Shown piece by piece: positions 23,883 to 53,916 of a DNA stretch of 53,916 bases. Under the pieces are notes generated by a model that was not told where the DNA came from, made no database searches, and worked only from the letters and a program-made list of their open reading frames with translations. A program made the translations under genes and the position numbers. Source of the stretch: Moniliella sp. 'wahieum' (Eukaryota); contig RSEE01000086.1 of NCBI GenBank assembly GCA_003971905.1, forward strand, positions 248,001-301,916, in the 5' to 3' direction. How positions within the stretch are numbered: position 1 is the stretch's first letter; the number at the start of each line of letters is the position of its first letter.

Positions 23883-24836
23883 TTGCGCTTCAAACTTGAT
23901 GCCCCTTTCGCACCCAGGACCACACATCCACCATCTCTCTCTGTGGCCACCTTCTCCTCCAAGGCAATGGGTAGGTTAGGGGGTAGCAGGTCATGACCAG
24001 TGTAAGCATAAAAACGTACCGCCAAATCGAAAATGCGACGATGCATGGTTGACCAAACATCGAGCAATCTATTTACCTATTACACATTTGATTTTCCTTT
24101 ATGCCTGTAGCAACAGGTGTCGAACTTATTGAGCTTCGCCCAACGGTAAATACAGATTGTCCCCCACTGGCTCCATACCCTGTAGCCGTCCGGTCGTCCG
24201 GTATGTGCCCAACGTGGACAGATGATATATCGTTTACTAAGCAGATCTTATCCTGGCCTTCACACTGCTAACTTCATCGAAGTTTAGGGCGCTGCACTGT
24301 AGGAAGAGGTGATGAACCGGTACTCAACCATGTGTGCTCCGTTCGCGACCCCCAAGAATTGACTCAACCGGTTGCAGAGCAACTGACCGTGACAAAGTGG
24401 GCGGCAGACATAAACGTGGAGCGCATCCAGACTACCGGCGAATGATGGAACCAAGAGCATTTGATGGATCAGGGGTGGAGGTGGACCAGCACTTTGACGG
24501 ACTCAATGAGGTGTCCCAGTTTCTAGAAGAGTCGTACGGTATACACACTTGAGGTGGCACGTCTGCGCCTTAGGAACCCCCGGAGATATGGAGAGCTGCA
24601 TCATGACTTAGCTGTTCGAGGAGAAACCTGGTTTCGCAACAGCTTTCGCTAGAAATCCAAGTACTAGAGGGGTGCACCCATCATGGCCACTTTCTTCCCT
24701 CTGGAAAAGTCACCCTATAGGTAATTATGGGTTTCAAAGACTGTCGATAAGAGGGTGGGCATTGAAAGAACCTACTGAAAGCCTTATCAGCAATGGTCCA
24801 CCGCATATATGTCTACCGCCGCGCTCATTTCGTTTC

Positions 24837-25057
24837 TGATGAGACCTGGAGTCCTGATGGTCCTCGAGGGTGATGCAATCATTCGCACTGGCGGTGGTGG
24901 TGGTCTAAGCCAGCCAGCAACGCCTACAGAGAACATCAAGCAGTGAGTCGCCACCACTGGGGACTAAGCTGCGGAACAAGGAAAACGAGAGAGAGCAATA
25001 ACTGAACTCCCAGGCCTCTGCATTGGCCAAAGCACGAGACAACCCGATCACTCAACA
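24837..25057 (-). mobile_element. Solo LTR of the Copia family found at 47.7-49.9 kb
   Basis: TG...CA termini, aligns end to end with 47717-47953, and is flanked on both sides by a 5-bp TSD GTTTC (24832-24836 and 25058-25062). Confidence 0.92.
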
Positions 25058-25933
25058 GTTTCCACTCGCGCTACATCCGGTCTGGCAGCGAATGGGCGTG
25101 AGAGCTAGGGAGGAGTCCTGACATGCTGTGATCACATCGCTGTCCTCTTTTGTATTGGCCGGTACTTACACAATATTCACTGGACACGTGAGTTTCTGAC
25201 GCTCACTCTGCAAAAGTGACGAATCTAGAAATCAGAGAGCGGAAGAGATTTCGGGGCGTTTCGATGGTGCTTCGAGTTTTCTTACATGATGTTTCTACGG
25301 TCATTAAGGCTGCCACCAATACCGAACAGGAGATCACACTCAAAAACAGGCCAAGTAGATCAGAAAGAGTTACAACATACTAAAAGTGGAGCTGCCGCTC
25401 TCAATTCCCGTTGGCATGATAGTTTTTTTTTTATTGTTTTTCGTGACGTAGACTGTCCAACAGACAACTATGTGGTCCGCACAGTGGCACGACACACTTC
25501 TTGTTCTGATTGAATCCGCCTGTTGAAGTACGATGCATGGAACAGAAGGTCTCCATGTTCAGTAACGTGACCGCCACATCGCAGTAACCCGGGCATAAAT
25601 AACAGACGAGGAGGATGCACGAGACATCGAAGGCACAGCAGTCAATCTCTTTGGCGCAGAGGGCACAGACGGCGAGGACGACGACCGCACAGACGACTCT
25701 GAGACTGGAGAGTGATTTGGCGGCTATACATTCCCAAGACCTCTCAATGGCAAGCCCCCAAGTCCATATTGGCCCATCGCAATGCAAAAAAGTACCCTCG
25801 AAGACGACTACACTGCATTCGATGGTGCTAGAATGAGTAGTAGTAGTATAAAATGTAATACCAATAGTAACCCAGGGAGAGCGAGCATAGGAGGATCAGA
25901 TTCGTCAGATACGTCGCCCATGGGCACGTCAAT

Positions 25934-26050
25934 GACGTTTCTGACGTTCAAGGGGGTGACGTCGGCGACATATCTGACATTCAAGGGGATGACATCGAGG
26001 ACATATCTGACGTTCAGGGTGGTGACATCGACGACGTCACTGACCTGCAG
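25934..26050 (+). repeat. 33-bp degenerate tandem repeat x3.5
   Basis: One frame reads DVSDVQGGDVG/DISDIQGDDIE/DISDVQGGDID/DVTDLQ. Confidence 0.8.
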
Positions 26051-29000: not shown

Positions 29001-31503
29001 CTATGATTCTAGTTCATTCTGTAGAGCCAGCGCATGCTCGAGTCTAAGTGGCATCACTAGATGAAGGCCTCGTTTATGGGGCGGCACCGGTGACACGACG
29101 CACATATTTATAGAAACAAACAAAAATACGCTTGTCATACTGATTCTCCATCGCTTTCCCCTTCACCACCGCATACATCCTTCGATTCCCTGATGCCTAT
29201 CGCTTTCTCGTTTCACTTCCAGTGACACACGCTGGCGGTGGAGAAGATGATTGGGTGCACGTACCACGCGCTTCATTCGAAGTCGCCCTACCTCTCAAAA
29301 AACTTAACTTTCATACCAGTTTACTAGTAAATGAAAGTGAGAGGAGCCCGTCGTCTGTATCTACTCCATCTGTCGCCGTGCTCTCTACTTTTGGCGTCGA
29401 GAGAGTGGAGCGGAACGTGTATCATTTGATCGTGCAGCTCCATTTCTGTAACGCCTGTTAAGGCCCGGCAGACTATCCGGCACAGAAAATATAGAGCAAG
29501 GTGAGCCCGACGGTGAGCCCCCACCCCCCCTCCATAAAACATCGCTCTCTACGTCGCAACGCTTGTGAACACCCGACCTTCCTTCAATCCTCCCTAGACA
29601 CCGCTCGACTGTACTCGGTCCTACCCGGGGTTGATAGTCATGTGGATTGAGGTGCACGACGGTCCCTTGACCCACTACGGTGCAACATTGGGCATCTCCC
29701 TCCGCGGACGCGGAACGGACCTCTTGACTGTAATTGGAAGGCTGGCATATGGGAGAAAAGGCGAGTCTGTGGCCGTGAGCTGCGGCAATGGTCATACAAC
29801 CAGCCGATCCCTGAACCCTACTGGAGATAAGTGAAGGACTGTAGGTTGTCGTGAGAAGGAAACGGAAGGAGGGGGTTACGTGAGGAAATGATTTATGCAA
29901 GCTTAGTACTGTACTAAGAGCTAGGTTGTTGACCCCCACCGCTTACCACCCACAGCCTCATGTGTTCGTCAACTAAGCAGGCGGGAGAGGTGGGCAAGGA
30001 GGGTTGAGACTCTGGTGTTGCCGTTGTGTGACTGCAGTGCACTGGCATATGATGCCATGGCCTTCTCTCCAGATGCGATGCAAAGCGCGGATGAATCAAC
30101 CGACAGACGGACGGAGGATGGTACTTGTTCATCTTCTGATCCGTCTATCGTATCTATAGCCCGCGAGTATGGGTCGTTGGGGGGTGGGGCTCCGAGTGTT
30201 GACAATGCCTATGCCTCTTCTGATTAGTCGCATGCCCCTCCTTGCTCTCCTGTCACAAGCAAAGAAGGACTGGCAATGAAAGCGTGGGGGAGCCCATGTG
30301 CTCTCTTCTTCTATGAGACGGATGGGCTGCGGATATGACGAGGTTGATGCTCCTCGTGCGCTCGATGATCTCGACGGCCAACCTCCCCCCCTGGCACTAA
30401 AGGAGAAACGTTAGGGGACTAACAACCCTGGGCAGCTCATCCCTCTCCTGGACATACGATCCGGATCTTGGTGGATGCACTGAGGAGCAAAGATTGGGTG
30501 ACGTCTCGGGCGGTGTGACTTTGGTACACACAGAAGAATATCAAGTTCGTTGGAAGGCACGAATTGGAAGGCACAAATGTGTATAATCTAGCTTACCCTC
30601 TCTCCCCACCTGATGGGCCACAGCCGAGCGGCGTCGCATTGAGCATACTCTGCCCCAACTCATTGCACTCAGTGTATGGCACCCCAATCGGACCTGCCGC
30701 TGACTTCTGCAAGGATCGATGGGCGGCTATATCCCTTCCATCCTCGTCCCGATCCTTAGGAGATGATTCTATAGCCACAACGCGGGCGAGAATAGGAGGG
30801 ATTGGTGTCGTCGAGGGGGCGGGGGGGGGGGGGGGGGGCGAATGCGCCAGGCTGTTTTGGGTGGGACGCCGTGGTGGCCGATAGTCAGAGGAAGCGGTCG
30901 GGAGAGATGTGAGGGATGTGTTTGGGGGTTGAAGGGGGGCAGTATATGTGCTACTCTGCCCTGCCCTCTGCCCTCTGCCCTCTGCTTTCTTTTGCGTTTG
31001 CTGTTGGATGTGTAGCTGGGTTGACCGGTACGGCTGCTTCTGTCCTGCTCCTCGCCGCACTCAGGGGGTTGCGCGTAGAAAGGGGGGAGGTGGGTGCCGG
31101 GCGAGAGACAGATCTGGCGGCGGCGGATCAGGGAGAGCATGAGCGGCGATGGCTGGAGAGTTCTTGCGCGGCATGCTGCATCGCTGTGGGGGGTTGGCCT
31201 GCTCGCCATCCCCAGCGTCCTGTCCCGCATGGACGTCATGCCGCACCCAGTCGCATAGAGCTATACCCCCGATCGACTGAGGGGAGACGAGTATCGGATG
31301 CGATGGTATTCTCACATCAACCATAACATTTAAGTCACCCCTTCAGCCCCCCCCTTGTCCCGTCCGAGCCCAGCATCCCAGCCTCCTCACTTCGAACCCC
31401 CCCCCACACCCACAACCACCACGACCGTGGGTCTTGCACGACACGTGGACGTGGACGTGGACGTGTTGAAGTGCTGCCCGCGGTGGTGGACCACAGACTG
31501 GCC

Positions 31504-33974: not shown

Positions 33975-36820
33975 ATGCCGTCGCTCGCGATGCGCGGGGC
34001 GCGCGGGGCGATGCTGCTGAGCGCAGTGCTGGTGGCGCTGGTGGCTGTGGGCTTGCTGTGGTGGCGCGTGTGCCTTCTTCGGTGCCGGCGGTGCTGGCAG
34101 GGCGGGTGGACCGGTGGATCCCACCAGTACTGCGTCCGCGCGGGAAGCGGTACCCCCCATTGCCGTACGTGGGGCTGGAGGTATCCTCCACGGGCTTCCC
34201 GCGGCTCGCGACGAGCGATCCAGAAGAACTACCCAGCTACCCGCCCGACGCACTGCGTCGTGCCGCCCACCACACCGTCTTTGGCCTCGGCATCGACGAC
34301 ATTACCGGCCCCATCGTGCAGACCAACATGATGGGCTATGCGACGATGGAGCAGTTCAACCAGGGCATCCACATGCGCACCTGGGCGCGCGCATTTATCG
34401 TTGGCTCTGCCGCCTCGGGGCCGGTGAACGCCAGCTCCATTGCCACCACCACCACCACCACTGGCAATGCGACTGCCGACCCGCTCGCTGACCCGGGCGG
34501 GCTGGACCCAGTCGACGGCGCGCCGGACCGGTGGTGTGCTGGTGAACGCCGATCTGTGCATGGGCGATACGGCAATACGTCGTGCGCTGGTGCACCGACG
34601 CGCAGCGCCTACCCCGGGCTGTACGGCGAGCGGAACGTAGCGCTGGTCGGGACGCACAACCACGCCGGTATGGCCGGCTACCACAACACCCTCCTTCCCA
34701 CCGTGACCAACCTGGGCATCAGTCGACAAACGGTGGATGCGATTGTCGAGGGGTGTTACCGCGCGGTGTTGCGTGCGCACCACGACTTTGAGCAGCGTCG
34801 CGCAACGGTCGTCGATTTGGTTGAGCGCAGCACCAGCAGCCGTTCGGACAGCGACAGCCACGCTGCGGCTGCGAGCGCTGCTGCGCTGGCTGCGCTCCAG
34901 CTCGACTTTGCCAACACTTCGCTGGCGGATGCGCACGTCAACCGGTCGCCTCTGGCGTACGCGGCGAACCCCGAGGCGGAGCGGGCGTACTGGGGCAGCG
35001 AGCAGGACGATGAGTTTGCGCTGGTGCGGTTCCGGGACACGGACGGGGCAGTGCGTGGGTTTGTGAGTTGGTATGCTGTGCATGGCACGTCGCTCAAGCC
35101 GAACAACACGTTGACTTCGTCGGACAACAAGGGCCTTGCAGCGTTTCTCGTCGAGCAAAGCAAGCTGAGAAGCAAGCGCTTGCTCGGGGCCGTAGCGCGT
35201 CCGAGGCTGCGTCGGACGCGCTGGACCAAGCTCCCGGTACCATTGGCTTTATCGCCGGCTTTGCCCAGGCGTCCGTCGGCGACACGTCGCCCAACACGCT
35301 CGGATCGTTTTGCGAAGGCAGCAACCAGCCGTGCGATGCGCGCACGTCCACGTGCCGCGTACCTTTTCTCTTTGGCCTGCTGCAGCGCACCACGACCACC
35401 ACGTGTCACTCGCGCGGGCCCGGCCACGGGGACGAGGCAGCAAGGCAGATGGCCCCGACGGGCGGGTACGATTGGCGGTCGAACGAGCTGATTGGGGCCA
35501 AGCAAGCGGATACGGCTCTCAAGCTGCTGGCTTTGCCCGCGTCCAACTTTACACGCGTAGCGGGCGCAACGCGCGTGGTCAAGTGGACCGTCGACCTGAG
35601 CAACTATACCGTTACCTTACCCAACGGCACGCGGGTCTCGACCCGCCCAGCGTCGCTCGGGTTCGCCTTTGCTGGTGGCACGACCGATGGGCCCGGGCAG
35701 TTCGACTTTCACCAAGGCCACACTAAGGGCGACTGGACCAACCCTCTATGGCGGTTCCTGCGACCGGTGGTGCACGAGCCATCGGCTGCGCAACAGGCCG
35801 CGCACGAGCCCAAGGCCATCTTGCTCGACACGGGCGTCTTGACCTGGCCCTACGCCTGGAGCCCATCGGCAGTCGAGACCCAGCTCTTCCAGACAGGCAA
35901 CTTGTTCGTCCTCGTCGTGCCGGGGAGATGACGACGATGGCTGGGCGGCGGCTCAAGGCAGCTGTGCGCGCTTCGATCCGCGCGCACCTGCCTGGGTTTG
36001 ACGGGGACGTTGACCACGGCGGCGGCGTCGAGCCACTGGTGCTGCTCACCGGCCGGGCAACACGTACGCGCACTAATCACGACCGAGGAGGAGTACGCGG
36101 TCGGTGCAGCGGTACGAAGGTGGAGCCACAGTCTTTGGGCCGTGGACATTAACTGCCTTGACCGACATTTATGCGCGGGTGCTGGTGCCTGCGCTGCGGA
36201 GGGCGCGCCGCCACCGCCAAGGGGAACGTTGGTGCCGACCAACGTGGGTCGCGCACCCGAGCTGGTACCGGGCGTGGTGATCGACCGTCCTGGCGTGGAA
36301 AACAGTTTGGTCAACTGCTCCATGCGCCACAGACCACGTACCGCGTCCCACCCACTTCTGCGCCCGGCTTGGCGCCCGTCGGCGCACATGCCACCTCCAG
36401 CAACGTCACCGTCTCCTTTGTCGCGGCCAACCCGCGGAACGATGTGCGGCTGGGCCAGAGCCACTTTGTGGTGCAGCGCCTTGTCCCGTCGGACCTGCAC
36501 GTGGACGTGGACGTGGACGCGGACGTGGACATGGGGGGACGTGGCGGACGGTACGGACCGATGCGCACCACACGACGACGATGCGCTGGACGCCGACGAG
36601 CTTGGTGGGCGGGACGAGCGAGGTGAGCATTGCGTGGGCGATTGAGCCCCACACTGCGCCTGGCGTGTACCGTATCGTGTACTTTGGCGCAGCCAAGGCC
36701 TGGTCCGGCGAGTTGACCCGCTTCACCGGTACCAGCCCCACTTTCCGTGTCCTCCCGCCCGATCCCAATGGCGATGGCAATGGCGATGGCAATGGCAATG
36801 GCGATCGGGCCGACGCCTAA
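33975..36820 (+). CDS. Neutral/alkaline non-lysosomal ceramidase
   Basis: N-terminal signal anchor; GIDDITGP, MMGYA, GIHMRTWARAFIV, GTHNHAG, NRSPLAY, VHGTS..N....SDNKG, GDTSPN (GDVSPN-type catalytic motif), AGGTTDGPG, PGEMTTMAGRRL, ANPRND, PGVYRIVYFG. Confidence 0.93.
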
Positions 36821-37038: not shown

Positions 37039-40000
37039 TCAGGCGCGCAGCGGGCGGAGCCTGCGACGTCGCGCCGTGCGCGCCACGGGCGTAGCTACAT
37101 CCATCTTGACGTTCTCCTGTTGGCCAGTGGCCGAGCGGGGGCTAGGTAGCCGCCATAGCTGTCGTAGCTGCTGTTGCTGCGCCGAGACTGGTGCTGCGGT
37201 TCCGAGCATGAACGTGGGAATGAGCATGAGCATGGACGTGGGATGGGTATGGGCATGGTGAGCAGCCCCAGCTAACTTGCTCTTCTTCCCCACCGCTTCC
37301 GCCTCCGCCTCCGCCTCCAACTCCCGCTCCAACTCTCGCTCCAACTCCAACTCGGACGCGGCCGAGCTCGATGCGACGGACGAGGTGGGCGAAGAAGGTC
37401 GGTCTGGTCTCCCTCCCTCACGTTGGCATGTGGGTGGCCCTGATCCTGGTCCTGGTTCTGGTCCTGGGCTTGGGTGGCTCGTGGCGGCGGGGGAACCTCC
37501 TGTGCCTGTCCCGCTCCCGCTCCCTCTCTTTCGGACCGTAGCGCCGACGCAGAAAAGGGCAACAAGCTACGTATGGACGCTGCAGCCGGAGTGGGCGGGG
37601 GCAAGACGGTGTGCGAGTCGCGCGAAGCGCGGGGCAAGTGGAACGAGCTAACGTGCTGCTGCTCAGCGAGGGACGAAGGGAGGTACGTGCGACGCAAATG
37701 GTCCACTTCAGCCTGCTTAGCTCGAGCGCAATGGCCAACTTGAACCGTTCGTGTTCGGACGTGCACGGTGACGTTGGACGCGGACCAGTTCCAGTTCCTG
37801 GTCGGCGCTACGGCGTTCGAGACGGTCAATGCGGTCGAGCTGCGTCTGGTTTGTTTCGCGCTCAGTTTCCCGCTGGGTTTCGCGCTGCTCGAAGGTTTCC
37901 AGCTGGGCATGGGCCGAACGTAACTCGTCCTGCACCTGCTGCAGCTGCATCTGGAGCGCCGCGAGGGTGCCCTGAGCCTGGTCGCGCAGGTGCTGCGCTT
38001 GGACGCACTCATCGCGCGCGAGACGGAGCGCAGTATCGCGCTCATGCAGCTTTTGCAACGCATCTTCCTGAGCACGCTGAGCGTCCTCGAGTTGTCGCCG
38101 CGCCTCGTCACGCGCCTGCTCGGCATGGCGCATCCTCTTCCCACCCTTGCTCGCTAGCACGTTGCTCGTCGAGCCACAACCGACGCTGCTCCTCGGCTTC
38201 GTGCTCGGCTTGCTCCCACGCACGTTGGACCGCAGCGTGCTGCGCCTCTTCTTGCTCCTCCAGCGCACGCTGCAGCTCAGCCACTTGCGCTTCCGCATCG
38301 TACAACCGCTCCCGTACGTCCCGCTCTCGTCCCCATCTCCATCTCCATCTCCATTTGGTCCTTCGCTTTGATCTGGCGCTCGCGCTCGCTCTGGGGCGCC
38401 TCGGGACCCAATGTCGTATGCTCCACCAAGGACACACTGTGCATCTCGGCCCACCTACGCTGATGAGCGAGTAAAGCAGCCTGAGCATCCTGACTAGCCT
38501 GGAGGACAGCTTCCTCTCGCGCACGCTGCACTTGGACTTTAGTTTCTTCCTCTGCGCTGTTGAGGGCGAGGGTGAGTGCAGCACACTGGTCTTGCAAAGC
38601 TTGCACTTGCGTGTTCCAGCGCGCACGTTGCCTTGCGTGCGCACGGTGCGCTTGCTCCACACGACGCGCTAGGTCAGGTAGGTAGTGCAGCGCGGCGAGC
38701 GGCGCAGCCGCAGCCGTAGCTGGAGATGATACCGCCCCGGACGAGGTAGGTACCGAGGCGCCCACTGTCGACGGCGCAGAGGCCGGGCGGGCCAAGGGCG
38801 AGGGCGAGGGCCAAGCCAGGGGGGCCTGGGTAGTCAACGCGGTTTGGTAGGACGTTTCGTGGTGCGCATGGACGGTACCTTGGTGGTCGGTCTCTGGCTC
38901 GGGCTCGGGGTTGGGGACGCGCGACACCGACGCCGATGCCGATGGGACAGCAACCCACGCAAGTAGGTCGCATAGGCCACATGGGCCCGATCTAGATCGT
39001 GAACCGCATGGAGCAAGTCACTCTCGCTCGCGCTCGACCCATCCCCATCCTGATCCCCATCCACATCCCCGTCCCCGTCCTGATCTCCATCCCGATCCCC
39101 GCCCGCATGCTGGTTCCCATCCTCACCCCGATCCAGACGCCGATCGAGACCGCGAATTTCCCGCGGGCTGGGTCGACGTTGCGAGGAAGGGTATAGCGAC
39201 GAGGCGCTCGAGTACGGGTGGGGCGAGAGCGTCGGGGTGCTACCGTAGGATGGGGTAGCCGGTACGGCAGGTGTGGCAGTGAGATGGGCCGTGGGATGGA
39301 CGGTGGTGCTGGGGGGAAGAAGACCATTGCGATGAGCATGAGCATGAGTATGGCCAAGGGGGAGCAGAGGCGACGAGGCGGAAGGTAAAGGCGCGCGCTC
39401 TGTGCGCGGGGGCGAGGGGCCGGGGGAGGATGTGGGGAGCGAGGGGGCAACGGGGCCAGTACCAGTACCAGTTCCAGTTCCAGTAGCAGCGGTAGTAGCA
39501 GTACCCGTGCCAGGAGGCTGCGGGCGAGGGGAGAAAGAGGCCCGACGACTTGCTTCGGAAGGGTGCAAGGTGGAGCGAGTGGTGCCGTCTGCTGCGTGGG
39601 CGGGGAGGAGGCAGAGGGGGATTGCGAGTGAGAGTGAGAGGGGAGGAGGGCGACTGTGGGAGCGGGACGCGACGTGGGTCCGAAGCGAGCGACACCGACA
39701 CGTCCGATACGTCCAACGCGGGGGGAAGGGCGTCGCGGGCGCGGGGAGGGGAAGGGGCGACGTGCTGCACGTGGTTGAAGGGGGAGTAAGGGTCGTGTTG
39801 TGGCTGGCTCGTGCGCGCCGATACGGTTGCGGGCGGGGCGAGCGGAGGTGGGGGCACGGCCGAGGGAGCAAATCGTGCGAGGGAGACGAAGAAGGCGGTT
39901 GTAGTGCTCCTGCTGGTGCTGGTGCTGGTGCGGGGGAAGACGAAGACGATGGGGACGCAGCTTGCGTCTGGGCATAGCCGCGCTGCAAGTTGCTGCCCTC

Positions 40001-40427
40001 GCGGAGGAGGGTGCTGAAGGACAAGCTCTCCTCGTCGGCGAGCAGCGGTGGCTGTGGCGGGGCGCGCGAGGCAGCGGTGGCAGAGCGCGGGGTGGGGAAG
40101 ACGGGCCGCAGGCTGGGCTCGGGCGCAGGGTCGAGGAGGAGCGAGAGGGAGCCGTCGTCAAAGAGGCTGTCGTTGGCGGGGACAGAGAGGTGGGTGGTGT
40201 GGCAGCAGTGGCGGTGGCGGTGGCGGCGGTGGCGGAGGCGGGACGCACACTGGGAGACTCGAGATGGTCGTTGATGCTGATGTTGGAGAGCGAGAAGGAG
40301 GAAAGGCTCATGCTGCTCTCCTCGCCATTGTCGTAGAGGCGCTTGCCGAAGCGGACGGAGCTGCCGACCGTGTCGGTGGACTTGCGGCCGTGGCCGCGGC
40401 GGAGGATGGAGGTGGGGGTGAGATCAT
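37039..40427 (-). CDS. Large hypothetical protein: Ser/Pro-rich N-half, coiled-coil C-half
   Basis: Continuous coding-like ORF segments with long heptad, Q/E/R/A-rich stretches at ~37.7-38.7 kb. Start inferred near (M)DLTPTSILRR. Confidence 0.6.
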
Positions 40428-40797
40428 GGGGGTGGTGGTGGCGACACTGGTGGTGGTGGCGACACTGGTGGTGGTGGCGATGGTGGTGGCGGTGGCGATG
40501 GTGGTGGCGGTGGCAATGCCAATGGCAATGCCAATGGAGGACAACCAACGCGAGGGCGTGTTGTTCCGCCAAAGACGCCCCACGCGCGGGGTGGTCACGT
40601 GATTATTCTATTCCTCTCGCTCTCTCTGGTGGTTATATACTGGTCGGTGGATTTATATGCTTGCTCCCTCTCAGGGGCTAAAGCGCCCCTGGCGGCTTCC
40701 AGCTTCATCTGCCTCGTCCTCGCCCACGCCATCCCCACCTCCACCGCCACCACCTCCACCACCTCCACCACGCCATTCCATTCCCATCCCCACCATC

Positions 40798-45145: not shown

Positions 45146-46163
45146 CGCGCGTATCCACCGCTTTTTGTCCATCCCTACTAGCTGCGGTCACTGCCACTCC
45201 CCCGCTGCTTGCGGCGGGCCGGTGGATACTGTGGGTAGGCTCGCGCTTGCGCTGTATAGCCTGCCTATTGTTTTTTTCGTCTCCACTCAACAGATCTCGG
45301 ATCTTAGAAGACAGTGCGAGCTGGCCAATCTCCGAGATCTTCGATCTTAGATCGGATCGGCCGCCGTCGCATGGTTTTTTTGTTCGTCTCGTCGCGTCTC
45401 GTCGCGTTTTGGTTGGCGGTCGCGTGTTGAGTACTGAGTGGCGTGTTTCGTCGCTTGTTTCGTGTGTGTGTGTTTCGGGGTGTGGTTCTTGGCGCGTTCT
45501 TGGCGTGTCGCGTGTCGCGTGTCGCGTGTTTTTGTTCCCCCCTTGCCTGTTGCTTTTTCGTCTCCCGTTCCGGCCTCTTCTTCCGGTTCCGAGCCGCGTG
45601 CCAGAGCGGGAGCATCGATCATATCTCGGTGTTACGCACAACAGAGGCCACCGCGAAAAGTGCGATGCATATACGAGGTGTCTATTAGTACGTCGCTCTG
45701 TTGGGATATCATAGCAGGCCATGATAGCCTATGCACTCAGCTAGTCAGGGTGGCCACGCATCGCGTCTCGCTCCTGTCCTTCAACACAACCATCATCATT
45801 AATCAGTAATCACCTCCCACGGATCTCACCGGTCACCTCTCAATCTCACCTCTCACCCGAGCGTTGAGTTTGGAGTGGTCTTATCGCTGCCGGCCGCGCA
45901 CCCCTTTCGTCTCTCCCTTCTGACGCGATCGAGGCCCGGTGTACCCGGCATCGAGCATCCCGCTCTAGCGCACACGTCGGTCCTAAGTAGCTGATGCATC
46001 TTTTTGCCTCCCCCGGCCGTGACCGTTCGCGCCCACACCCGCCCTCAGCACCGACACAGAAATGGGAATGAACCATGCATGAACATTGAACCTTGCACGC
46101 AAAGCAACACACAACCCAACACCACATATCATAATCACCCCATACCATACACTTGCAAAAGAA

Positions 46164-46256
46164 TGCCTCTTGGCCGAATCGAACGACCGATCTTCTCATG
46201 GAAGGACACTGATGCAGGCCTACTAGTGAGATGCTTTACCACTGAGCCAAAGAGGC
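46164..46256 (-). tRNA. tRNA-Thr(AGU) with 21-nt intron (46200-46220)
   Basis: Acceptor stem GCCTCTT/AAGAGGC, D arm GCTCAGTGGTAAAGC, anticodon stem TCTCA/TGAGA with CT-AGT-A, intron after position 37, T arm GGTCG-TTCGATT-CGGCC, downstream T-run. Confidence 0.93.
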
Positions 46257-47716
46257 TACATGATCCTCGCCCACGGCTTCGACCCACAACACCATTCTAT
46301 TCTATGGCACCGTACCGCCCACGCAGCCGAGCCCTCTTTGCGTCCCCTGGCCTTGCTCGTGTCCACACCGCAACAACAGGCCCCGCATGCACTACGTACA
46401 GCGCACCGCCCCCGTCCTCCGTCCCAGTGGCCAGTATCATAGCACAGGAAGGTACTGACAAGAAGGAGGTGGCCCCGCGGTGGTTGCCACGCTTTTCAAA
46501 CTTACTGCAGATCAGTCCTCAAAACACTGTTGGTTGGCAGTTCAAACGTCTTCAAAGTTGGCCATACTTTGCCTCGAAACGTGTGCAGAAGTTGCTAGTA
46601 TTCTCCCAGCTCGCATGTCCCAACAGGTGTGCATTTGCTCCTTAAACAGTGCCGACTGTATCATGGCCGACTTCCACTTGGCCGACCCGACGGTGGCGAT
46701 GGCCGAATGAATGGCGTGGATGGAGAAGCGAATGGCGGGAATGGCCAAACGAGTCGCGGGAAGGCGCCGGAGAGGGGAAACGGAGGCTGAGAATGGGGGC
46801 TAAACGAGGGCGCCGGGCCAAGCCAGGCTGGTTGGGGTGGTGGTGGTAAGAAACCAACCAGATCCATCGCCAGGCCAGCGCATAACAAGCGCCGCTGGCG
46901 AAAAGTTTAAACCTTTATTAATTTCACGATGCACACATCGGCTCGGCCGATTCCCATCACGCTAAGCTGGCTACCACCACTACCTCGTCCAACGCCCCAT
47001 GCCGGTTCTGCATCATTGTGCATCCCCTTGCCCTCCACCTGTGCGCATCTGAAAGCGGACTATCTGGGGAACCATACGCCATCTCTCATTCTCAGATCCA
47101 CCCAGTTCGGCTGGTGCGCCGCCGCTGTTTGTTCGAACATTCCGCCGTCTGGAAGCGGCCCGACCTCGTGGGAAGTGGTGTGACCTCATTACTGGACCAA
47201 TCCAGAAGCTCACCAGCTGTCCTGCAAGCCTTCAACCGTAACCCTTCAATGTGGTGTCCAATGCGGCGCTAACATATCTCAGATCTGTCCATAATTGGCG
47301 GAGCACAGGCACCATCAGTAATGACAATCCCCCGTTTCGACCTGCCCCCGGCTACTTGGACGTGACGTGTCCTCAATCCCGGACCATTCGGAAATGGTAT
47401 CGCCCCCTGTTGAAAGCCCTCAAAAGTGAGCACAATACAGTACTATCCTTTCTCTGGTCTGTCCCGAATTAGTGTAGCACGGGCGCCATCAACATCGACC
47501 CCCTCCGCCGTTTGACATTCCGTTAGATGATTGGACGTGTCCCGACTCGATCCTGGACCAATCCAAAAGCGCATCACCTCCCTGGAACGCCTGGTTCCGG
47601 TTCATTATCTGAATGTATGCAAACACCATATGCTGACAATTGGTGGAATGCGGGCTCCGTCAACAGCGACAAGTAATGCTATGGAAGGGATCGCTACCCG
47701 AAATCTCTTCTGTTCC

Positions 47717-47953
47717 TGATGAGACCTGGAGTCCGGATGGTCCTCGAGGGTGATGCAATCGCACTAGTGGTGGTGTGGTAATGGTCTAAGCCAACCAGCA
47801 ACGCCTACTGAGGAACACCAAGCAGCGAGTCGCCACCAGGGGCTAAGCTGCGGAACAAGGAAAAACAGGAGAGAGAAAAACAACGGAACTCCTAGGCCTG
47901 AGGAGGAACTGAAGGGACATTGGCCAAATAAGCACGAGCCACCTGGCTCAACA
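47717..47953 (-). mobile_element. 3' LTR (237 bp) of Ty1/Copia retrotransposon
   Basis: On the minus strand a G-run polypurine tract immediately precedes TGTTGAG...TCATCA; homologous to the solo LTR at 24837. Confidence 0.92.
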
Positions 47954-49932
47954 CCCCCCCGGGCCAAGGGACCAAAGAAACCCGTAGGCCAAACAAGTCA
48001 CGAAGAACGAAACGAGAAGAAAAGAAAGGGGAGCCAAATCGAATTGTTGAGATGTGGAAAGGAGTTTGGGAAGACCAACAGGTTTGGTGAACCAATCAGA
48101 TAAATGATCCACGCCCGGGACATGATGAACGACAAGCTCGCCACAGTGGATGCGTTCGCGCACCTCGTGGTACCACCATCGATCTCGCGGATCTTACCCA
48201 GGCTGCCAAGCTTCTCGGCAAGAGCCTTGGCTGCAGTGTGTCCACAAAGAGCTGAATCGGGTGTGCAGCAGGACAAATGCCCAGCTCAAAAAGAATGTTG
48301 CGCACAAAGAGTGCATCGCGCAAACCATCACCCATGGCCAAGTATTCGGAAGCGGCTGTGTTGCTCACTCCTTGGTTCTGTGTCTTGGTATTCCACGAGA
48401 CAGGCACACCATACACAAACACAACGTACCCGGAAACAGATCGTGAGCAGCGCTTGTCGAAGCAAAAGAAGCATCCGTATGTAGTTCAAGGAGGGGTCTT
48501 GCGCGGTCAGGTGTTAAGCGGAGAGAATGGTCAGCAGTACCCTTCAGGTATCGCAACAAGCCAACGGCAGCGTCACGGTGAGCACGAGAAGGGTCATCTA
48601 AGAAACGAACCAAAAAGGTGGCGGCAAACAAGGTGTCGGGACGAGACATGCGAGCCGACCACATGGCAGACCCGATCATAGAACGGTAGGCGTGATGCTC
48701 GTCGCGTGTGGATCGTGGTTCGTGCTCGGGACGTAGGGGAGGAGGAAGAGTGTGACTGAGCGGGAGACGGCGAGGATGGTCGTGAATCATGTCGTGTGGG
48801 TGGCAAGCGTTTCAGCAATGAATTTGGGTGGCTCACGTAGAGGCGCCCATCAATGCGGTCGTACTGGCACCCGAGGTGGAACGAAGTGGGCCATTGGATT
48901 TAATCTCGTATGACGGCGAAGCTCAACAAGGAAGGAGTCGTAGACGTCCGCCGAACGGCAAGCAACAAGAAAATCGTCAGTGTGGATGGCCAATAGAACG
49001 AGATCCAAGGATTTGGTACGACGAATGAAGAGGCAAGGCTCCGACTTGAGACTGGTAAAGCAAGACGGCCACAAAGGAAAGTACGCAACCAATCACCAAA
49101 ATTGGCCCCACTTTGATGGAGACCATAAAGACTCTTCTTCAGTTTCCAACACTTGCCTTTCCCTTCTGGGAAAAAGGGAGGCGGCCGAACATAGACCTCT
49201 TCGGTCACGTCCGCATACAGGTAGCCGCCTCAACGTCGGCTGTAAAGAGCTGGAGCCTTCCGCCTCGGAGACAGCGATCAAAGTATTGACGGCGGAGGTG
49301 CGAACCGCGGGAGCAAATGACTTGGTCCATGATCCGGGAAGCTGGCGATGTCCCCCCACTACATAACGCGCACGATACTTGACAAAGCGGCCCTCAGCAT
49401 CCGTCTTGGTACTGAGGACCCAAATACCGGGTAACACACGTGCCCCCGGAGGAATGGGCACCACCTCCTTCACCTTGCGAGAGTCGAAACGCGTCAGTTC
49501 AACGCGCATGGCAGCAAGGACATCATTAAATGCAGGGTGACCGACGAGAGCCGCACGGACTTGGGCGCCAATGGAACACCTAGTCGTATGTGTTTGAAAT
49601 CACTTGATGATTTGCAATTCAAATCGGCCCCACCTTGTTTCAAAAACCAGTAGGTGAAGAATCGCGAGCCCACTTGATGAAACCGTACAAGCTCTTGGCC
49701 CGGCCGACGGGCCGACAACCCACTAATGGGTGGTGTGTGTCCGGGTGGTGGTGTGTGGGGGGGTCACGGGGTGGTGGTGTGTGGGGGGGTGTCAGGGGTG
49801 GTGGTGTGTGTGTCACGCATGGTGGAGGGTGATGGGGGTAGGGTTAGGGTGGGGTGGGGTGTAATTTTGAACGGGGCGTCGGATGGGAAAACGGAGGGCA
49901 TATGCTGCATAGAGCGGACGATTTTATAGCGA
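47717..49932 (-). mobile_element. 5'-truncated Ty1/Copia LTR retrotransposon (integrase-RT linker, RT, RNase H, PPT, 3' LTR)
   Basis: RT motifs YRARYVVGGHRQ, SFAPAVR, EEVYVRPP, KLKKSLYGLHQSG, LAIHTDDFLV; YRSMIGSAMW..RPD; RNase H motifs HTDASFA, VSWNTKTQ, SEYLAM, SDWFTKP. No gag, protease, integrase core or 5' LTR. Confidence 0.93.
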
Positions 49933-50769
49933 GCTATCGCCTCGGCATAACTATCCACCCTTCGGGTTAGCTCGCTATCGCCTCGGCATAACTCTCACCC
50001 TTCGGGTAGCTGCTATCGCCTCGGCATAACTCTCCACCCTCGGGTAGCCGCTATCGCTCGGCATAACTCTCCACCCTCGGGTAGCTCGCTATCGCCTCGG
50101 CATAACTCTCCACCCTTCGGGTTAGCTCGCTATCGCCTCGGCATAACTTCCACCCTTCGGGTAGCTCGCTATCGCCTCGGCAAACTCTCCACCCTTCGGG
50201 TAGCTCGCTATCGCCTCGGCATAACTCTCCACCCTTCGGGTAGCTCGCTATCGCCTCGGCATAACTCTCCAACCTTCGGGTAGCTCGCTATCGCCTCGGC
50301 AAACTCTCCACCCTTCGGGTAGCTCGCTATCGCTCGGCATAACTCTCCACCCTTCGGGTAGCTCGCTATCGCCTCGGCATAACTCTCCACCCTTCGGGTA
50401 GCTCGCTATCGCCTCGGCAAACTCTCCACCCTTCGGGTAGCTCGCTTATCGCCTCGGCATAACTCTCCACCCTTCGGGTAGCTCGCTATCGCCTCGGCTA
50501 TAACTCTCCACCCTTCGGGTAGCTCGCTATCGCCTCGGCATAACTCTCCACCTTCGGGTAGCTCGCTATCGCCTCGGCATAACTCTCCACCCTTCGGGTA
50601 GCTCGCTATCGCCTCGGCAAACTCTCCACCCTTCGGGTAGCTCGCTATCGCCTCGGCATAACTCTCACCCTTCGGGTAGCTCGCTATCGCCTCGGCATAA
50701 ACTCTCCACCCTTCGGGTAGCTCGCTATCGCCTCGGCATAACTCTCCACCCTTCGGGTAGCTCGCTATC
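49933..50769. repeat. Tandem array of ~21 x 40-bp unit GCTATCGCCTCGGCATAACTCTCCACCCTTCGGGTAGCTC
   Basis: Read directly; copies differ mostly by single-base indels. Confidence 0.97.
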
Positions 50770-50785
50770 TACCCTCGGCCCTCCC

Positions 50786-50799
50786 TAGGGTTAGGGTTA
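50786..50799 (+). repeat. Short telomeric tract TAGGGTTAGGGTTA
   Basis: Read directly at the boundary between the two arrays; G-strand points toward the right end of the window. Confidence 0.7.
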
Positions 50800-53700
50800 C
50801 AAGGGCATGCCCACCCCACCCATTCAGGGTTGAGACAACTTTTGACTGGAAGACCACGGGAGTGAGTTAGTTTGAGTAGTACAAGGCTGTAGCTATCCAC
50901 CCCTACCACTCTCACTGTGATGCGACGCCTGGCCTTGGTGGGCAGTGCCGCCCTAACTTGACCCCACCCATAGGACCCAGGATGGATGCGACCATGCCAA
51001 CTTGGGATCTCAGCCTCCCAGCTCCCACTTCCCACATCAGTAGTCCCAGTCCAGGAGATGACAGTATTCAGATCCATGATCACCTGGTGGAATCGGGTAC
51101 CTGTCATAGAGAAGTGGGTGACAGACATCACCGGTCACCGTATATCGTTGAGTGAACATCACCCTTCAACGCCGACCCCAGGACCCAATCGAAGTACCTC
51201 AGTGTGTAGAGCTGGGTCAGGAGAAGCGATAGCACCGGTCCGGATCTCAATCGGACCAATACTGACCGAGTACCGTCCGTGGGAAGTCTGACCGGTGACA
51301 TCACCCTCTACTCGACCTACAGGGCTCAACCTCGACCTATTCCAGATCTGTTTCGTGCAGCTCTAGTCCTTCCGAGGTCTAGAGGGCCTGGTAGTTTCAT
51401 TCCGGTCGGACCAATATTGACGGACCGAGGTGGAGTTGAACCTGGGGTACGACCTGATACTTACAAGGGCATGCCCACCCACCCATTCAGGGTTGAGACA
51501 ACTTTTGACTGGAAGACCACGGGAGTGAGTTAGTTGAGTAGTACAAGGCTGTAGCTATCCACCCCTACCACTCTCACTGTGATGCGACGCCTGGCCTTGG
51601 TGGCAGTGCCGCCCTAACTTGACCCCACCCATAGGACCCAGGATGGATGCGACCATGCAACTTGGGATCTCAGCCTCCCCAGCTCCCACTTCCCACATCA
51701 GTAGTCCCAGTCCAGGAGATGAGCTGACAGTATTCAGATCCATGATCACCTGGTGGAATCGGGGTACCTGTCATAGGAGAGAAGTGGGTGACAGACATCA
51801 CCGGTCACCGTATATCGTTGAGTGAACATCCCCTTCAACGCCGACCCCAGGACCCAACGAAGTACCTCAGTGTTAGAGCTGGGTCAGGAGAAGCGATAGC
51901 ACCGTCCGGATCTCAATCGGACCAATACTGACCGTACCGTCCGTGGGAAGTCTGACCGGTGACATCACCCTCTACTCGACCTACAGGGCTCAAACCTCGA
52001 CCTATTCCAATCTGTTTCGTGCAGCCTCTAGTCCTTCCCGAGGTCTAGGGGCCTGGTAGTTTCATTCCGGTCGGACCAATATTGACGGACCGAGGTGGAG
52101 TTGAACCTGGGGTACGACCTGATACTTACAAGGGCATGCCCACCCCACCCATTCAGGGTTGAGACAACTTTTGACTGGAAGACCACGGGAGTGAGTTAGT
52201 TTGAGTAGTACAAGGCTGTAGCTATCCACCCCTACCACTCTCACTGTGATGCGACGCCTGGCCTTGGTGGGCAGTGCCGCCCTAACTTGACCCCACCCAT
52301 AGGACCCAGGATGGATGCGACCATGCCAACTTGGGATCTCAGCCTCCCCAGCTCCCACTTCCCACATCAGTAGTCCCAGTCCAGGAGATGAGCTGACAGT
52401 ATTCAGATCCATGATCACCTGGTGGAATCGGGTACCTGTCATAGGAGAGAAGTGGGTGACAGACATCACCGGTCACCGTATATCGTTGAGTGAACATCAC
52501 CCTTCAACGCCGACCCCAGGACCCAATCGAAGTACCTCAGTGTGTAGAGCTGGGTCAGAGAAGCGATAGCACCGGTCCGGATCTCAATCGGACCAATATG
52601 ACCGAGTACCGTCCGTGGGAAGTCTGACCGGTGACATCACCCTCTACTCGACCTACAGGGCTCAAACCTCGACCTATTCCAGATCTGTTTCGTGCAGCCT
52701 CTAGTCCTTCCGAGGTCTAGAGGGCCTGGTAGTTTCATTCCGGTCGGACCAATATTGACGGACCGAGGTGGAGTTGAACCTGGGGTACGACTGATACTTA
52801 CAAGGGCATGCCCACCCCACCCATTCAGGGTTGAGACAACTTTGACTGGAAGACCACGGGAGTGAGTTAGTTGAGTAGTACAAGGCTGTAGCTATCCACC
52901 CCTACCACTCTCACTGTGATGCGACGCCTGGCTTGGTGGGCAGTGCCGCCCTAACTTGACCCCACCCATAGGACCCAGGATGGATGCGACCATGCCAACT
53001 TGGGATCTCAGCCTCCCCAGCTCCCACTTCCCACATCAGTAGTCCCAGTCCAGGAGATGAGCTGACAGTATTCAGATCCATGATCACCTGGTGGAATCGG
53101 GTACCTGTCATAGGAGAGAAGTGGGTGACAGACATCACGGTCACCGTATATCGTTGAGTGAACATCACCCTTCAACGCCGACCCAGGACCCAATCGAAGT
53201 ACCTCAGTGTGTAGAGCTGGGTCAGAGAGAGAGTAAGCCGGTCCGGATCTCAATCGGACCAATACTGACCGAGTACCGTCCGTGGGAAGTCTGACCGGTG
53301 ACATCACCCTCTACTCGACCTACAGGGCTCAAAACCTCGACCTATTCCAGATCTGTTTCGTGCAGCCTCTAGTCCTTCCCGAGGTCTAGAGGGCCTGGTA
53401 GTTCATTCCGGTCGGACCAATATTGACGGACCGAGGTGGAGTTGAACCTGGGGTACGACCTGATACTTACAAGGGCATGCCCACCCACCCATTCAGGGTT
53501 GAGACAACTTTGACTGGAAGACCACGGGAGTGAGTTAGTTTGAGTAGTACAAGGCTGTAGCTATCCACCCCTACCACTCTCACTGTGATGCGGACGCCTG
53601 CCTTGTGGGCAGTGCCGCCCTAACTGACCCCACCCATAGGACCCAGGATGGATGCGACCATGCCAACTTGGGATCTCAGCCTCCCCAGTCCCACTTCCAC

Positions 53701-53916
53701 ATCAGTAGTCCCAGTCCAGGAGATGAGCTGACAGTTTCAGACATGATCACTGGTGGAATCGGGTACCTGTCATAGGAGAGAAGTGGGTGACAGACATCAC
53801 CGGTCACCGTATATCGTTGAGTGAACATCACCCTTCAACGCCGACCCCAGGACCAATCGAAGTACTCAGTGGTAGAGCTGGGTCAGAGAAGCGATAGCAC
53901 CGGTCCGGATCTCAAT
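50797..53916. repeat. Tandem array of ~670-bp units (4 complete plus 1 partial, running off the window)
   Basis: TTACAAGGGCATGCCC recurs at 50797, 51461, 52126, 52798 and 53467; units are near-identical apart from small indels. Confidence 0.97.

What the first reader, a model, noticed from the sequence alone, without database searches (positions are those of the whole stretch)
50770..53916. ~670-bp tandem unit grafted onto a two-repeat telomere stub: candidate telomerase-independent end-extension system
Seen: only 14 bp of TTAGGG-type sequence (TAGGGTTAGGGTTA, 50786-50799) is present, and its last TTA is also the first three bases of the first unit (GGGTTA|CAAGGGC, whereas internal units read GATACTTA|CAAGGGC). 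Beyond it lies a homogeneous head-to-tail array with no telomeric tracts between units. Known: endonuclease-deficient Penelope-like elements (Athena, Coprina), Magnaporthe MoTeR and Cryptococcus Cnl1 attach to or insert in telomeric repeats, and telomerase-negative survivors amplify subtelomeric units. Inference: a critically short telomeric 3' G-overhang primed copying of this unit through 3-nt microhomology, by reverse transcription of an RNA or rolling-circle/BIR copying of a circular or tandem template. The unit has no recognisable ORF, so it would be non-autonomous.
Basis: partly seen in the sequence, partly recalled or inferred. Interest (0 to 1): 0.8.

Follow-up and report, generated by a model that had tools for sequence, protein, structure and literature searches.

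The report
Satellite array joined to telomere stub
At what looks like an old chromosome end of a smut-related fungus, a long non-coding repeat of 675 bases starts exactly on a 14-base remnant of ordinary telomere sequence, a scar of DNA being added to a worn-out chromosome tip, but whether this repeat now caps the chromosome could not be tested.

Summary
TAGGGTTAGGGTTA (50786-50799) abuts a head-to-tail array of 4 full units and 1 partial unit (starts 50800, 51464, 52129, 52801, 53470). The copies differ almost only by 1-base deletions, which is assembly noise. The deletion-aware consensus is 675 nt. All 4 internal junctions read GATACTTA|CAAGGGC, so TTA is shared with the stub.

Both telomere-like sites point towards the window end.

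The unit has no ORF with a family match, no Rfam match, no telomere repeat and no RNA fold beyond shuffles. That argues against a retroelement.

Earlier unchecked notes report a 676-bp satellite on at least 3 other pieces of this genome, and 40-bp arrays outside decayed telomeres at 2 other ends. Two gene trees place the organism in Ustilaginomycotina, outside the telomerase-negative Microstromatales.

Best reading (0.55): a satellite block was copied or joined, as DNA, onto an eroded telomere through 3-nt microhomology. This matches the telomere-marked block boundaries known in subtelomeres.

No genome and no sequencing runs were available. Terminal position, read support and telomerase status are therefore untested.

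The parts
47948..49599 (-). Degenerate Ty1/copia-type retroelement. Only the RT and downstream part is present. The gag-protease-integrase side, which would lie to the right, is missing.
   Evidence: Pfam RVT_2 matches on 49093-49599 (E 2.2e-09) and on 48900-49229 (E 1.6e-09). 0 of 8 ORFs tested in 46900-49763 match integrase or gag. There is no LTR-size direct repeat in 46600-50000. The gene order of copia elements is established knowledge.
49730..49870 (+). G-rich block (GC skew +0.64) with a 26-nt repeat (49743-49810) and a telomere-like GTAGGGTTAGGG at 49838-49849. Read as a decayed older telomere tract.
   Evidence: Sequence read. TRF row 49743-49810. Pattern matches. Skew.
49933..50763 (+). 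Minisatellite of 21 units with a true period of 40 nt. It is C-rich on the + strand (GC skew -0.32).
   Evidence: TRF gives 21.1 copies, 95% matches and 4% indels. Unit-by-unit alignment shows 2 mismatches, 14 deleted and 5 inserted bases over the 21 units. Skew.
50764..50785 (+). Degenerate, partly deleted 22nd minisatellite unit that leads into the telomere stub.
   Evidence: Alignment to the 40-nt consensus. The piece 50764-50803 shows 8 mismatches, 6 deleted and 6 inserted positions, against at most 2 differences in any other unit.
50786..50799 (+). Telomere stub TAGGGTTAGGGTTA, with the G-strand on + and so pointing to the window end. Its last TTA (50797-50799) is shared with the end of the 675-nt unit.
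50800..53469 (+). Four full copies of the 675-nt non-coding unit (50800-51463, 51464-52128, 52129-52800, 52801-53469).
   Evidence: No Pfam match, no Rfam match, fold z-scores 0.04 and -0.21.
53470..53916 (+). Fifth, partial copy (447 nt) cut by the window end. It is the noisiest copy, with 16 deleted and 1 inserted bases.

Best explanation
The right end of the window is a layered chromosome-end region. From inside to outside it holds housekeeping genes, a copia element broken off on its 5' side, a decayed G-rich telomere-like tract, a 40-nt subtelomeric minisatellite, a 14-nt TTAGGG stub and then the 675-nt satellite.

The most likely history (inferred): TTAGGG repeats once capped the 40-nt array. 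That telomere eroded to about two repeats. The exposed end ...GGGTTA-3' was then either extended by copying from an existing 675-nt satellite array or circle (break-induced or microhomology-mediated replication, or rolling circle), or joined to a broken satellite array by microhomology-mediated end joining. Either route used the TTA shared by the two sequences.

The process worked on DNA, not through an RNA intermediate. The unit is one copy set of a satellite family that, according to earlier notes, also lies elsewhere in this genome. The junction is thus a scar of chromosome-tip capture, like the telomere-marked block boundaries of other subtelomeres.

Shown: the anatomy, the orientation, the microhomology and the non-coding, unstructured nature of the unit. 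Inferred: the order of events, the copying mechanism and the distal position of the array on the chromosome.
For: - The junction sequence and the 4 of 4 identical internal junctions.
- Both telomere-like sites lie on the + strand, each at the proximal edge of an array, with 0.10 expected by chance and 0 of 100 shuffles reaching 2.
- Context typical of a subtelomere. Genes for two kinases, Nop12, squalene epoxidase, ceramidase and RNR2 run up to about 44.4 kb. Then come a tRNA and a copia relic that lacks its 5' half where the G-rich block begins.
- The copies are identical apart from indel noise, as expected from recent copying of a homogeneous donor.
- The unit has no RT or other family match (0 of 5 ORFs), no Rfam family, no fold signal and no relative elsewhere in the window (best blastn hit 22 nt, E 0.34).
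- Earlier unchecked notes report a 676-bp satellite on 3 other pieces (e1-7649786, e1-7835305, e1-7835179). They also report 40-bp arrays just outside decayed telomere tracts at 2 other contig ends (e1-7650222, e1-7835206).
Against: - No read-level support could be obtained. No genome is held and no run was listed, so the junction rests on one noisy assembly.
- I do not know whether the contig ends where the window ends, or what lies beyond the array.
- Identity between this unit and the 676-bp satellite of the earlier notes rests on length, homogeneity and lack of coding only. The sequence look-up did not link them. It also failed to link the 40-nt array to the notes on 40-bp arrays, so that index seems not to cover those pieces.
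- Three bases of microhomology arise by chance once in 64 (my arithmetic), so the TTA alone is weak evidence.
- The + strand of both arrays is C-rich (skew -0.065 and -0.32), unlike a canonical G-strand.
- The first 9 nt of the stub align weakly to the tail of the 40-nt unit, so a little less than 14 nt may be truly telomeric.
Confidence: 0.55

Rival explanations
1. The 675-nt satellite, with the 40-nt array, is the present physical cap of several chromosomes in a fungus that has lost or sidelined telomerase. It would be maintained by recombination or rolling-circle copying, as in Microstromatales. The stub is then a preserved fossil of the switch from TTAGGG to a non-canonical array.
For: - The proximal-plus-distal array layout, and one distal motif at several ends, are features of the telomerase-negative Microstromatales. 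Circles containing 34 of their 36 distal telomeric motifs were found there (PMC13234504, sections 18, 19, 21, 22 read).
- In this window the array is distal to a telomere stub of correct polarity.
None speaks of an intact TTAGGG cap. These notes are unchecked.
Against:
- The organism falls outside the named Microstromatales clade in the ERG1 tree (clade support 98) and outside the Sympodiomycopsis kandeliae clade in the ceramidase tree.
- The paper states that the other lineages of Exobasidiomycetes keep Est2, Tpp1 and canonical repeats (section 22); whether this organism belongs to that class is unresolved.
- The unit (675 nt) is far longer than the 41-178 nt motifs described there.
- Contigs of noisy assemblies end in long repeats wherever those repeats lie.
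- TTAGGG relics are present here, whereas none were found in those species.
Confidence: 0.2
2. Assembly artefact: a chimeric or mis-joined long read attached satellite sequence to a read that ended near a chromosome tip.
For: - The whole region from 49933 onward is unpolished, with about 2% indels in both arrays.
- The assembly is noisy even in genes: the ceramidase gene changes frame 2>1>3>2 with overlapping matches.
- Natural DNA ends are over-represented at read ends.
Against: - A read ending at a live telomere should carry a full tract, not 14 nt.
- There is no adapter-like insert at the junction.
- Indel noise is similar on both sides of the junction: 21 differences in 837 nt before it and 60 in 3117 nt after it. 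There is no sign of a drop in support exactly there.
Confidence: 0.1
3. In-situ or interstitial origin. The satellite arose here by microhomology-mediated tandem duplication of a single-copy 675-nt segment lying next to an interstitial telomere relic. Alternatively, the array is internal, for example after fusion of an old chromosome end to another chromosome.
For: - Tandem duplications typically show a few bases of homology between the upstream flank and the unit end, which is exactly the TTA pattern seen.
- The window stops inside the array, so nothing shows that it is terminal.
Against: - Earlier notes place a 676-bp satellite at other, unrelated junctions and on its own 30.6-kb contig (unchecked). 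At most one locus can be the birthplace.
- Fusion to an internal satellite would tend to create a dicentric chromosome (established knowledge).
Confidence: 0.1
4. Non-autonomous retroelement copied by target-primed reverse transcription from the telomeric 3' overhang (the RNA branch of the first reader's idea).
For: - The 3' overhang ...GGGTTA could pair with an RNA ending ...UAA.
- Each unit also ends in TTA, so repeated additions could re-use the same priming.
- A stack of dead MoTeR/Cnl1-like elements is reported at another end of this genome (e1-7648826, unchecked).
Against: - No RT or any Pfam match in 0 of 5 unit ORFs, and the longest frame is 136 aa.
- No ribozyme, tRNA-like or other Rfam match in the unit.
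- Fold z-scores of 0.04 and -0.21.
- No poly(A)/poly(T) and no telomere tract at the 4 internal junctions, and all 4 complete units are full length.
Confidence: 0.03

Closest known systems
Internal (TTAGGG)n islands at subtelomeric duplicon boundaries (human subtelomeres; PMC2323237, passages read)
   Same: A short telomere tract, oriented towards the chromosome end, sits exactly at the boundary between a proximal block and a distal block. It is read as a chromosome tip translocated or copied onto an older end.
   Different: Here the stub is only 14 nt, against mostly 150-200 bp there. The distal block is a homogeneous long-unit satellite, not a low-copy duplicon. The host is a fungus.
Non-canonical chromosomal-end-specific telomeric arrays of telomerase-negative Microstromatales (Brejova et al. 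2026, PMC13234504; sections 18-22 read)
   Same: - Same subphylum.
- Tandem arrays of non-telomeric motifs at contig ends.
- Proximal plus distal arrays.
- One distal motif at several ends (here only according to earlier notes).
- The authors propose spread through circles and recombination.
   Different: - Motifs there are 41-178 bp, against 675 nt here.
- No TTAGGG at all was found there, while relics are present here.
- Est2 and Tpp1 are absent there and could not be tested here.
- The window's organism lies outside the named Microstromatales clade.
TelKO-element arrays of telomerase-negative Naumovozyma castellii (PMC6778800, passages read), and yeast Y' / Ustilago UTASa type I survivors (named in PMC13234504 section 22; one search gave the search listing only)
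   Same: A shortened telomere is lengthened by tandem copies of a subtelomeric element. A very short interstitial telomere tract (9 bp in N. castellii) is proposed as the invasion site.
   Different: Each TelKO repeat (about 275 bp) carries about 50 bp of telomere sequence, and the very end remains telomeric. Here 4 of 4 internal junctions have no telomere tract, and the end itself is unseen.
Telomere-targeted retroelements (MoTeR1/2 of Pyricularia, Cnl1 of Cryptococcus, Athena/Coprina Penelope-like elements).
   Same: A sequence attached directly to telomere repeats at a chromosome end, in one orientation.
   Different: No RT, no telomere-like repeats at or between units, no truncated copies and no ribozyme.
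Satellite-terminated chromosomes of Diptera (Chironomus units of about 340 bp, the Anopheles gambiae 2L array), recalled from memory. Composite telomeres of Meloidogyne are mentioned in PMC13234504 section 22.
   Same: Long-unit tandem repeats take the place of short telomere repeats and are kept by recombination.
   Different: Those are shown experimentally to be terminal. Here that is unknown.

Membership tests
Microstromatales-type non-canonical telomeric arrays | Arrays form the physical chromosome termini (BAL-31 sensitive; contigs equal chromosomes) | not testable with these tools
   No genome is held, no run was listed, and the window stops inside unit 5.
Microstromatales-type non-canonical telomeric arrays | No TTAGGG-like repeats in the genome | tested here: not met
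   A 14-nt exact stub at 50786-50799 and an 11-nt exact match at 49839-49849. No long tract occurs in the window.
Microstromatales-type non-canonical telomeric arrays | Genome lacks Est2 (TERT) and Tpp1 | not testable with these tools
   No genome is held. An earlier unchecked note reports a likely telomerase RNA gene.
Microstromatales-type non-canonical telomeric arrays | Motif length within the described range (41-178 bp) | tested here: not met
   The distal unit is 675 nt. The proximal unit is 40 nt, just under the range given in PMC13234504 sections 18 and 19.
Microstromatales-type non-canonical telomeric arrays | Proximal and distal arrays of different motifs on one end | tested here: met
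   A 40-nt array at 49933-50763 is followed by the 675-nt array from 50800.
Microstromatales-type non-canonical telomeric arrays | Organism belongs to the order Microstromatales | tested here: not met
   In the ERG1 FastTree the 4 named Microstromatales form a clade (support 98) without the window. The window sits in a 5-row clade (support 100) of unnamed proteins. The quick ML ceramidase tree likewise separates it from the Sympodiomycopsis clade. These are single-gene trees on partial proteins.
Telomere-targeted retroelements (MoTeR / Cnl1 / Athena-Coprina PLE) | Encodes a reverse transcriptase, or is a deletion derivative sharing its ends with an RT-bearing partner | tested here: not met
   0 of 5 unit ORFs match Pfam at E<=1, and the longest frame is 136 aa. 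A partner elsewhere in the genome could not be searched.
Telomere-targeted retroelements (MoTeR / Cnl1 / Athena-Coprina PLE) | Telomere or telomere-like repeats at element ends and between stacked copies, with frequent 5' truncation (recalled features) | tested here: not met
   There is no TTAGGG in the unit, 4 of 4 internal junctions lack any tract, and all 4 complete copies are full length.
Telomere-targeted retroelements (MoTeR / Cnl1 / Athena-Coprina PLE) | Hammerhead ribozyme motifs in Penelope-like elements and retrozymes (recalled feature) | tested here: not met
   The Rfam scan at E<=1 over 49600-52200 gave 5 sub-threshold matches, all inside the 40-nt array and none in the unit.
Telomere-marked subtelomeric block boundary | Internal telomere tract oriented towards the chromosome end | tested here: inconclusive
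   Both tracts have the G-strand on +, with genes to the left and arrays to the right. That the chromosome end lies to the right is inferred, not seen.
Telomere-marked subtelomeric block boundary | Tract coincides with the boundary between two sequence blocks | tested here: met
   The stub lies exactly between the 40-nt array and unit 1.
Telomere-marked subtelomeric block boundary | Distal block shared with other chromosome ends | not testable with these tools
   Only earlier unchecked notes speak to this. The sequence look-up gave no link.
TelKO / Y'-type ALT amplification | Each amplified unit carries a telomeric tract | tested here: not met
   There is no TTAGGG within or between units.

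The most novel reading that the evidence does not exclude
This fungus, a Ustilaginomycotina lineage outside Microstromatales, has independently replaced TTAGGG telomeres by non-canonical tandem arrays: a 40-nt array and a 675-nt array shared among ends. This window would preserve the graft point. A telomere eroded to two repeats primed copying of the satellite through 3 nt of homology. That would be the first sequence-level snapshot of how a telomerase-independent chromosome cap is installed in nature.
Probability: 0.2. Interest if true: 0.85.

Novelty: new variant of a known kind. Interest (0 to 1): 0.5.

Why it matters
If the array is only a subtelomeric block added to an old telomere, this is a clean fungal example of a process known from other subtelomeres. 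It also shows that long-unit satellites, rare in fungi, can move to chromosome tips.

If the array is the present cap, the interest is greater. The only described natural telomerase-negative fungi, the Microstromatales, have erased every trace of their ancestral repeats. The way their arrays were installed is therefore a hypothesis. A lineage that still shows TTAGGG stubs under its arrays would make that step directly readable. It would also offer a second, independent system for studying ALT-like end maintenance.

Tried and rejected
- Whole-genome search for the unit: no genome is held for this window (after a mistyped reference).
- Public sequencing runs: none was listed, and no RNA holder was listed. 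Read laying could therefore not be used.
- Metagenome contig scans with an invariant 27-nt word of the unit and a 32-nt word of the 40-nt array: 0 matches each.
- Earlier-findings look-ups by sequence, for the unit and the 40-nt array: no link to other pieces of this genome. The single hit was an unrelated bacterial window sharing 4 of 141 words.
- Earlier-findings look-up 'near': nothing.
- rDNA spacer idea: the Rfam gathering scan of the whole window found only one tRNA, and no rRNA or 5S.
- Viroid-like, ribozyme or structured-RNA template: rejected.
- Origin from the neighbouring copia element or its LTR: blastn of the unit consensus against window 1-50780 gave 14 hits of 12-22 nt, best E 0.34.
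- Head-to-head telomere fusion at CCCTAGGG (50782-50789): rejected by reasoning. A fusion gives the G-strand followed by the C-strand, which is the opposite order.
- The third exact GGGTTAGGG, at 23822, is isolated in ordinary sequence.
- The ESM Atlas look-up for taxonomy gave only generic ceramidase clusters.
- The careful ML tree did not finish in the time allowed, so the quick tree was used.
- ARAGORN did not call the tRNA that Rfam found.
Full report
**What is there**

TAGGGTTAGGGTTA lies at 50786-50799. The next base starts a head-to-tail array whose units begin at 50800, 51464, 52129, 52801 and 53470. All are on the + strand, and there are no copies on the minus strand.

There are 4 full units of 664-672 nt and a fifth of 447 nt cut by the window end. 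All 4 internal junctions read GATACTTA|CAAGGGC. The first junction reads GGGTTA|CAAGGGC, so TTA is common to the stub and the unit end.

TRF did not list this array because its longest period is 500.

**The copies are probably identical**

Against a consensus that keeps a base when at least two copies have it (675 nt), the 3117 nt of array differ by 51 deleted bases, 6 inserted bases and 3 mismatches. This deletion-biased pattern is long-read noise.

The same noise is seen in the minisatellite upstream: 2 mismatches, 14 deletions and 5 insertions in 21 units. At a lower rate it is also seen in genes. The ceramidase gene at 34,103-36,751 changes frame 2>1>3>2 with overlapping protein matches.

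Copy-to-copy differences therefore carry no evolutionary information, and fine details of the junction depend on an unpolished consensus.

- Ordinary genes run up to about 44.4 kb: two kinases, Nop12, squalene epoxidase, neutral ceramidase and the RNR small subunit. A tRNA lies at 46,164-46,256.
- A degenerate copia-type element lies on the minus strand. Only its RT is recognised: RVT_2 at 48,900-49,599 matched 2 of the 8 ORFs tested in 46,900-49,763.
- In copia elements gag, protease and integrase precede RT (established knowledge). They should therefore lie to the right of 49,600.
- Instead there is a G-rich block (49,730-49,870, GC skew +0.64). It holds a 26-nt repeat and GTAGGGTTAGGG at 49,838-49,849. 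No LTR-size direct repeat is present.
- About 80 nt further on begins a minisatellite whose true period is 40 nt, with 21 units at 49,933-50,763.
- A 22nd, degenerate unit runs into the stub.

The order is thus: genes, a broken retroelement, a decayed telomere-like tract, the 40-nt array, the 14-nt telomere stub, the 675-nt array, the window end.

Both telomere-like sites have the G-strand on +. This is the polarity of telomeres capping what lies to their left. Two such sites against 0.10 expected, with 0 of 100 shuffles reaching 2, and each at the inner edge of an array, is not chance. A third exact GGGTTAGGG at 23,822 is isolated and looks fortuitous.

**What the unit is not**

- It has no frame longer than 136 aa in a consensus trimer.
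- 0 of 5 of its ORFs match Pfam at E<=1.
- The Rfam scan at E<=1 over 49,600-52,200 gave 5 weak matches, all in the 40-nt array and none in the unit.
- Its RNA folds no better than shuffles on either strand (z 0.04 and -0.21, 20 shuffles each).
- Internal repeats are at most 19 nt.
- It holds no TTAGGG and only one CCCTAA.
- Nothing else in the window resembles it.
- No rRNA or 5S is in the window.

There is no sign of reverse transcription. There is no RT, no A- or T-tail, no truncated copy and no telomere tract between units.

**Context from the same genome (earlier AI notes, unchecked)**

- A 'homogeneous 676-bp non-coding satellite' is reported on three other pieces. On one, at least 26 copies start at the edge of an LTR-like repeat (e1-7649786). 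One is a whole 30.6-kb contig (e1-7835305). One lies at the start of a window (e1-7835179).
- Two other contig ends carry a 40-bp array 'just outside a decayed stretch of ordinary telomere' (e1-7650222, e1-7835206).
- The description of one of these arrays as GA/GAA-loop mini-hairpins fits the minus strand of the unit here, which contains CCCGAAGGG and GCCGAGGC (my reading).
- Another end is a stack of dead MoTeR/Cnl1-like elements (e1-7648826).
- One note reports a likely telomerase RNA gene (e1-7641912).
- None of the notes returned mentions an intact TTAGGG cap.

The sequence look-ups did not connect my arrays to those pieces. Identity of the 675-nt unit with the '676-bp satellite' is therefore likely but unproven.

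**Who the organism is**

- The ceramidase fragment has its best named hits in Tilletia horrida (48%) and Tilletiaria (49%), with Sympodiomycopsis kandeliae at 42%.
- The squalene epoxidase fragment is 53-60% identical to the named Ustilaginales, Microstromatales, Tilletiaria and Exobasidium proteins alike (Jaminaea rosea lowest, at 53%), and 61-76% to its four closest unnamed proteins.
- In the ERG1 tree the 4 named Microstromatales form a clade (support 98) that excludes the window. The window sits in a 5-row clade (support 100) of unnamed proteins.
- The quick ceramidase tree agrees.

The window therefore comes from a Ustilaginomycotina lineage without a named close relative in these searches, and outside the sampled Microstromatales. 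These are single-gene trees on partial proteins.

**Comparison with what is known**

- Brejova et al. 2026 (PMC13234504; sections 18-22 read). Four Microstromatales yeasts lack Est2, Tpp1 and all TTAGGG. They end their chromosomes in tandem arrays of 41-178-bp motifs, often end-specific, sometimes as proximal plus distal arrays, with one distal motif on several ends. The authors found telomeric circles and TERRA-like RNA. They propose that proximal arrays are former telomeres capped by a new motif. The layout here is the same. The taxon, the unit length (675 nt) and the presence of TTAGGG relics differ, and the defining tests (terminal position, loss of telomerase) could not be run.
- N. castellii survivors (PMC6778800, passages read). 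They add about 275-bp TelKO repeats starting at a 9-bp interstitial telomere tract, but each repeat carries about 50 bp of telomere sequence.
- Human subtelomeres (PMC2323237, passage read). Internal (TTAGGG)n, oriented to the telomere, mark nearly all duplicon boundaries. This is read as tips translocated onto older ends, and it is the ordinary counterpart of what is seen here.

**Mechanism**

I commit to a DNA-level event (confidence 0.55). A telomere that capped the 40-nt array eroded to about two repeats. Its end ...GGGTTA-3' then either primed copying of an existing 675-nt array or circle, or was joined to a broken array, through the shared TTA.

The junction, the polarity and the homogeneity are shown. 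The order of events and the enzyme pathway are inferred. Break-induced replication, rolling circle and microhomology-mediated end joining leave the same scar and cannot be told apart from this sequence.

Three bases of homology occur by chance once in 64, so the TTA is suggestive only. The same TTA pattern would also arise if the satellite had been born here by a microhomology-mediated tandem duplication. That rival is weakened only by the unchecked notes of the satellite at other loci.

**Rivals**

- A present-day telomerase-independent cap: 0.2.
- Assembly artefact: 0.1. A chimeric read would be expected to carry a full telomere tract, and noise is similar on both sides of the junction.
- In-situ or interstitial origin: 0.1.
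- Retroelement: 0.03.

**What remains open**

Everything that needs the genome or reads remains open. No genome is held, no run was listed, and two metagenome scans found nothing. Supplementary tables of PMC13234504 (motif sequences) were not consulted.

**Verdict**

The reverse-transcription branch is rejected, and the 'system' claim is unproven. The finding is moderately interesting now. It would become highly interesting if reads show that the arrays are terminal in a genome without TERT.

Noticed in passing
window 49730-49870: A G-rich block (GC skew +0.64) with 2.6 copies of a 26-nt repeat and a telomere-like GTAGGGTTAGGG. It lies exactly where the copia element loses its gag-protease-integrase half. 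It looks like an older chromosome break healed by telomere addition.
   Followed up: partly
window 49933-50763: On the minus strand the 40-nt minisatellite unit contains the mini-hairpin motifs CCCGAAGGG and GCCGAGGC. This matches the description of 40-bp terminal arrays noted on two other pieces of this genome. The array may be a shared subtelomeric element of this fungus.
   Followed up: partly
window 34103-36751: The neutral ceramidase gene changes reading frame at least three times, with overlapping protein matches. It is either indel noise of the assembly or a pseudogene. Squalene epoxidase (7805-9582, minus) is also split over frames.
   Followed up: partly
window 46164-46256 (minus): Rfam calls a 93-nt tRNA (51 bits), probably with an intron. 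ARAGORN run over 45500-53916 did not call it.
   Followed up: no
window 24000-30000: A stretch with clearly lower G+C (0.48-0.50, against about 0.6 elsewhere). It has no ORF of 150 aa or more between 23,330 and 29,385, and it carries a 33-nt tandem repeat at 25,940-26,060. Its nature is unknown.
   Followed up: no
window 19207-21117, 21551-23083, 38992-40572: Long open frames (510-636 aa) in very G+C-rich DNA (up to 0.69) without any Pfam match. They may be lineage-specific genes or composition artefacts.
   Followed up: no
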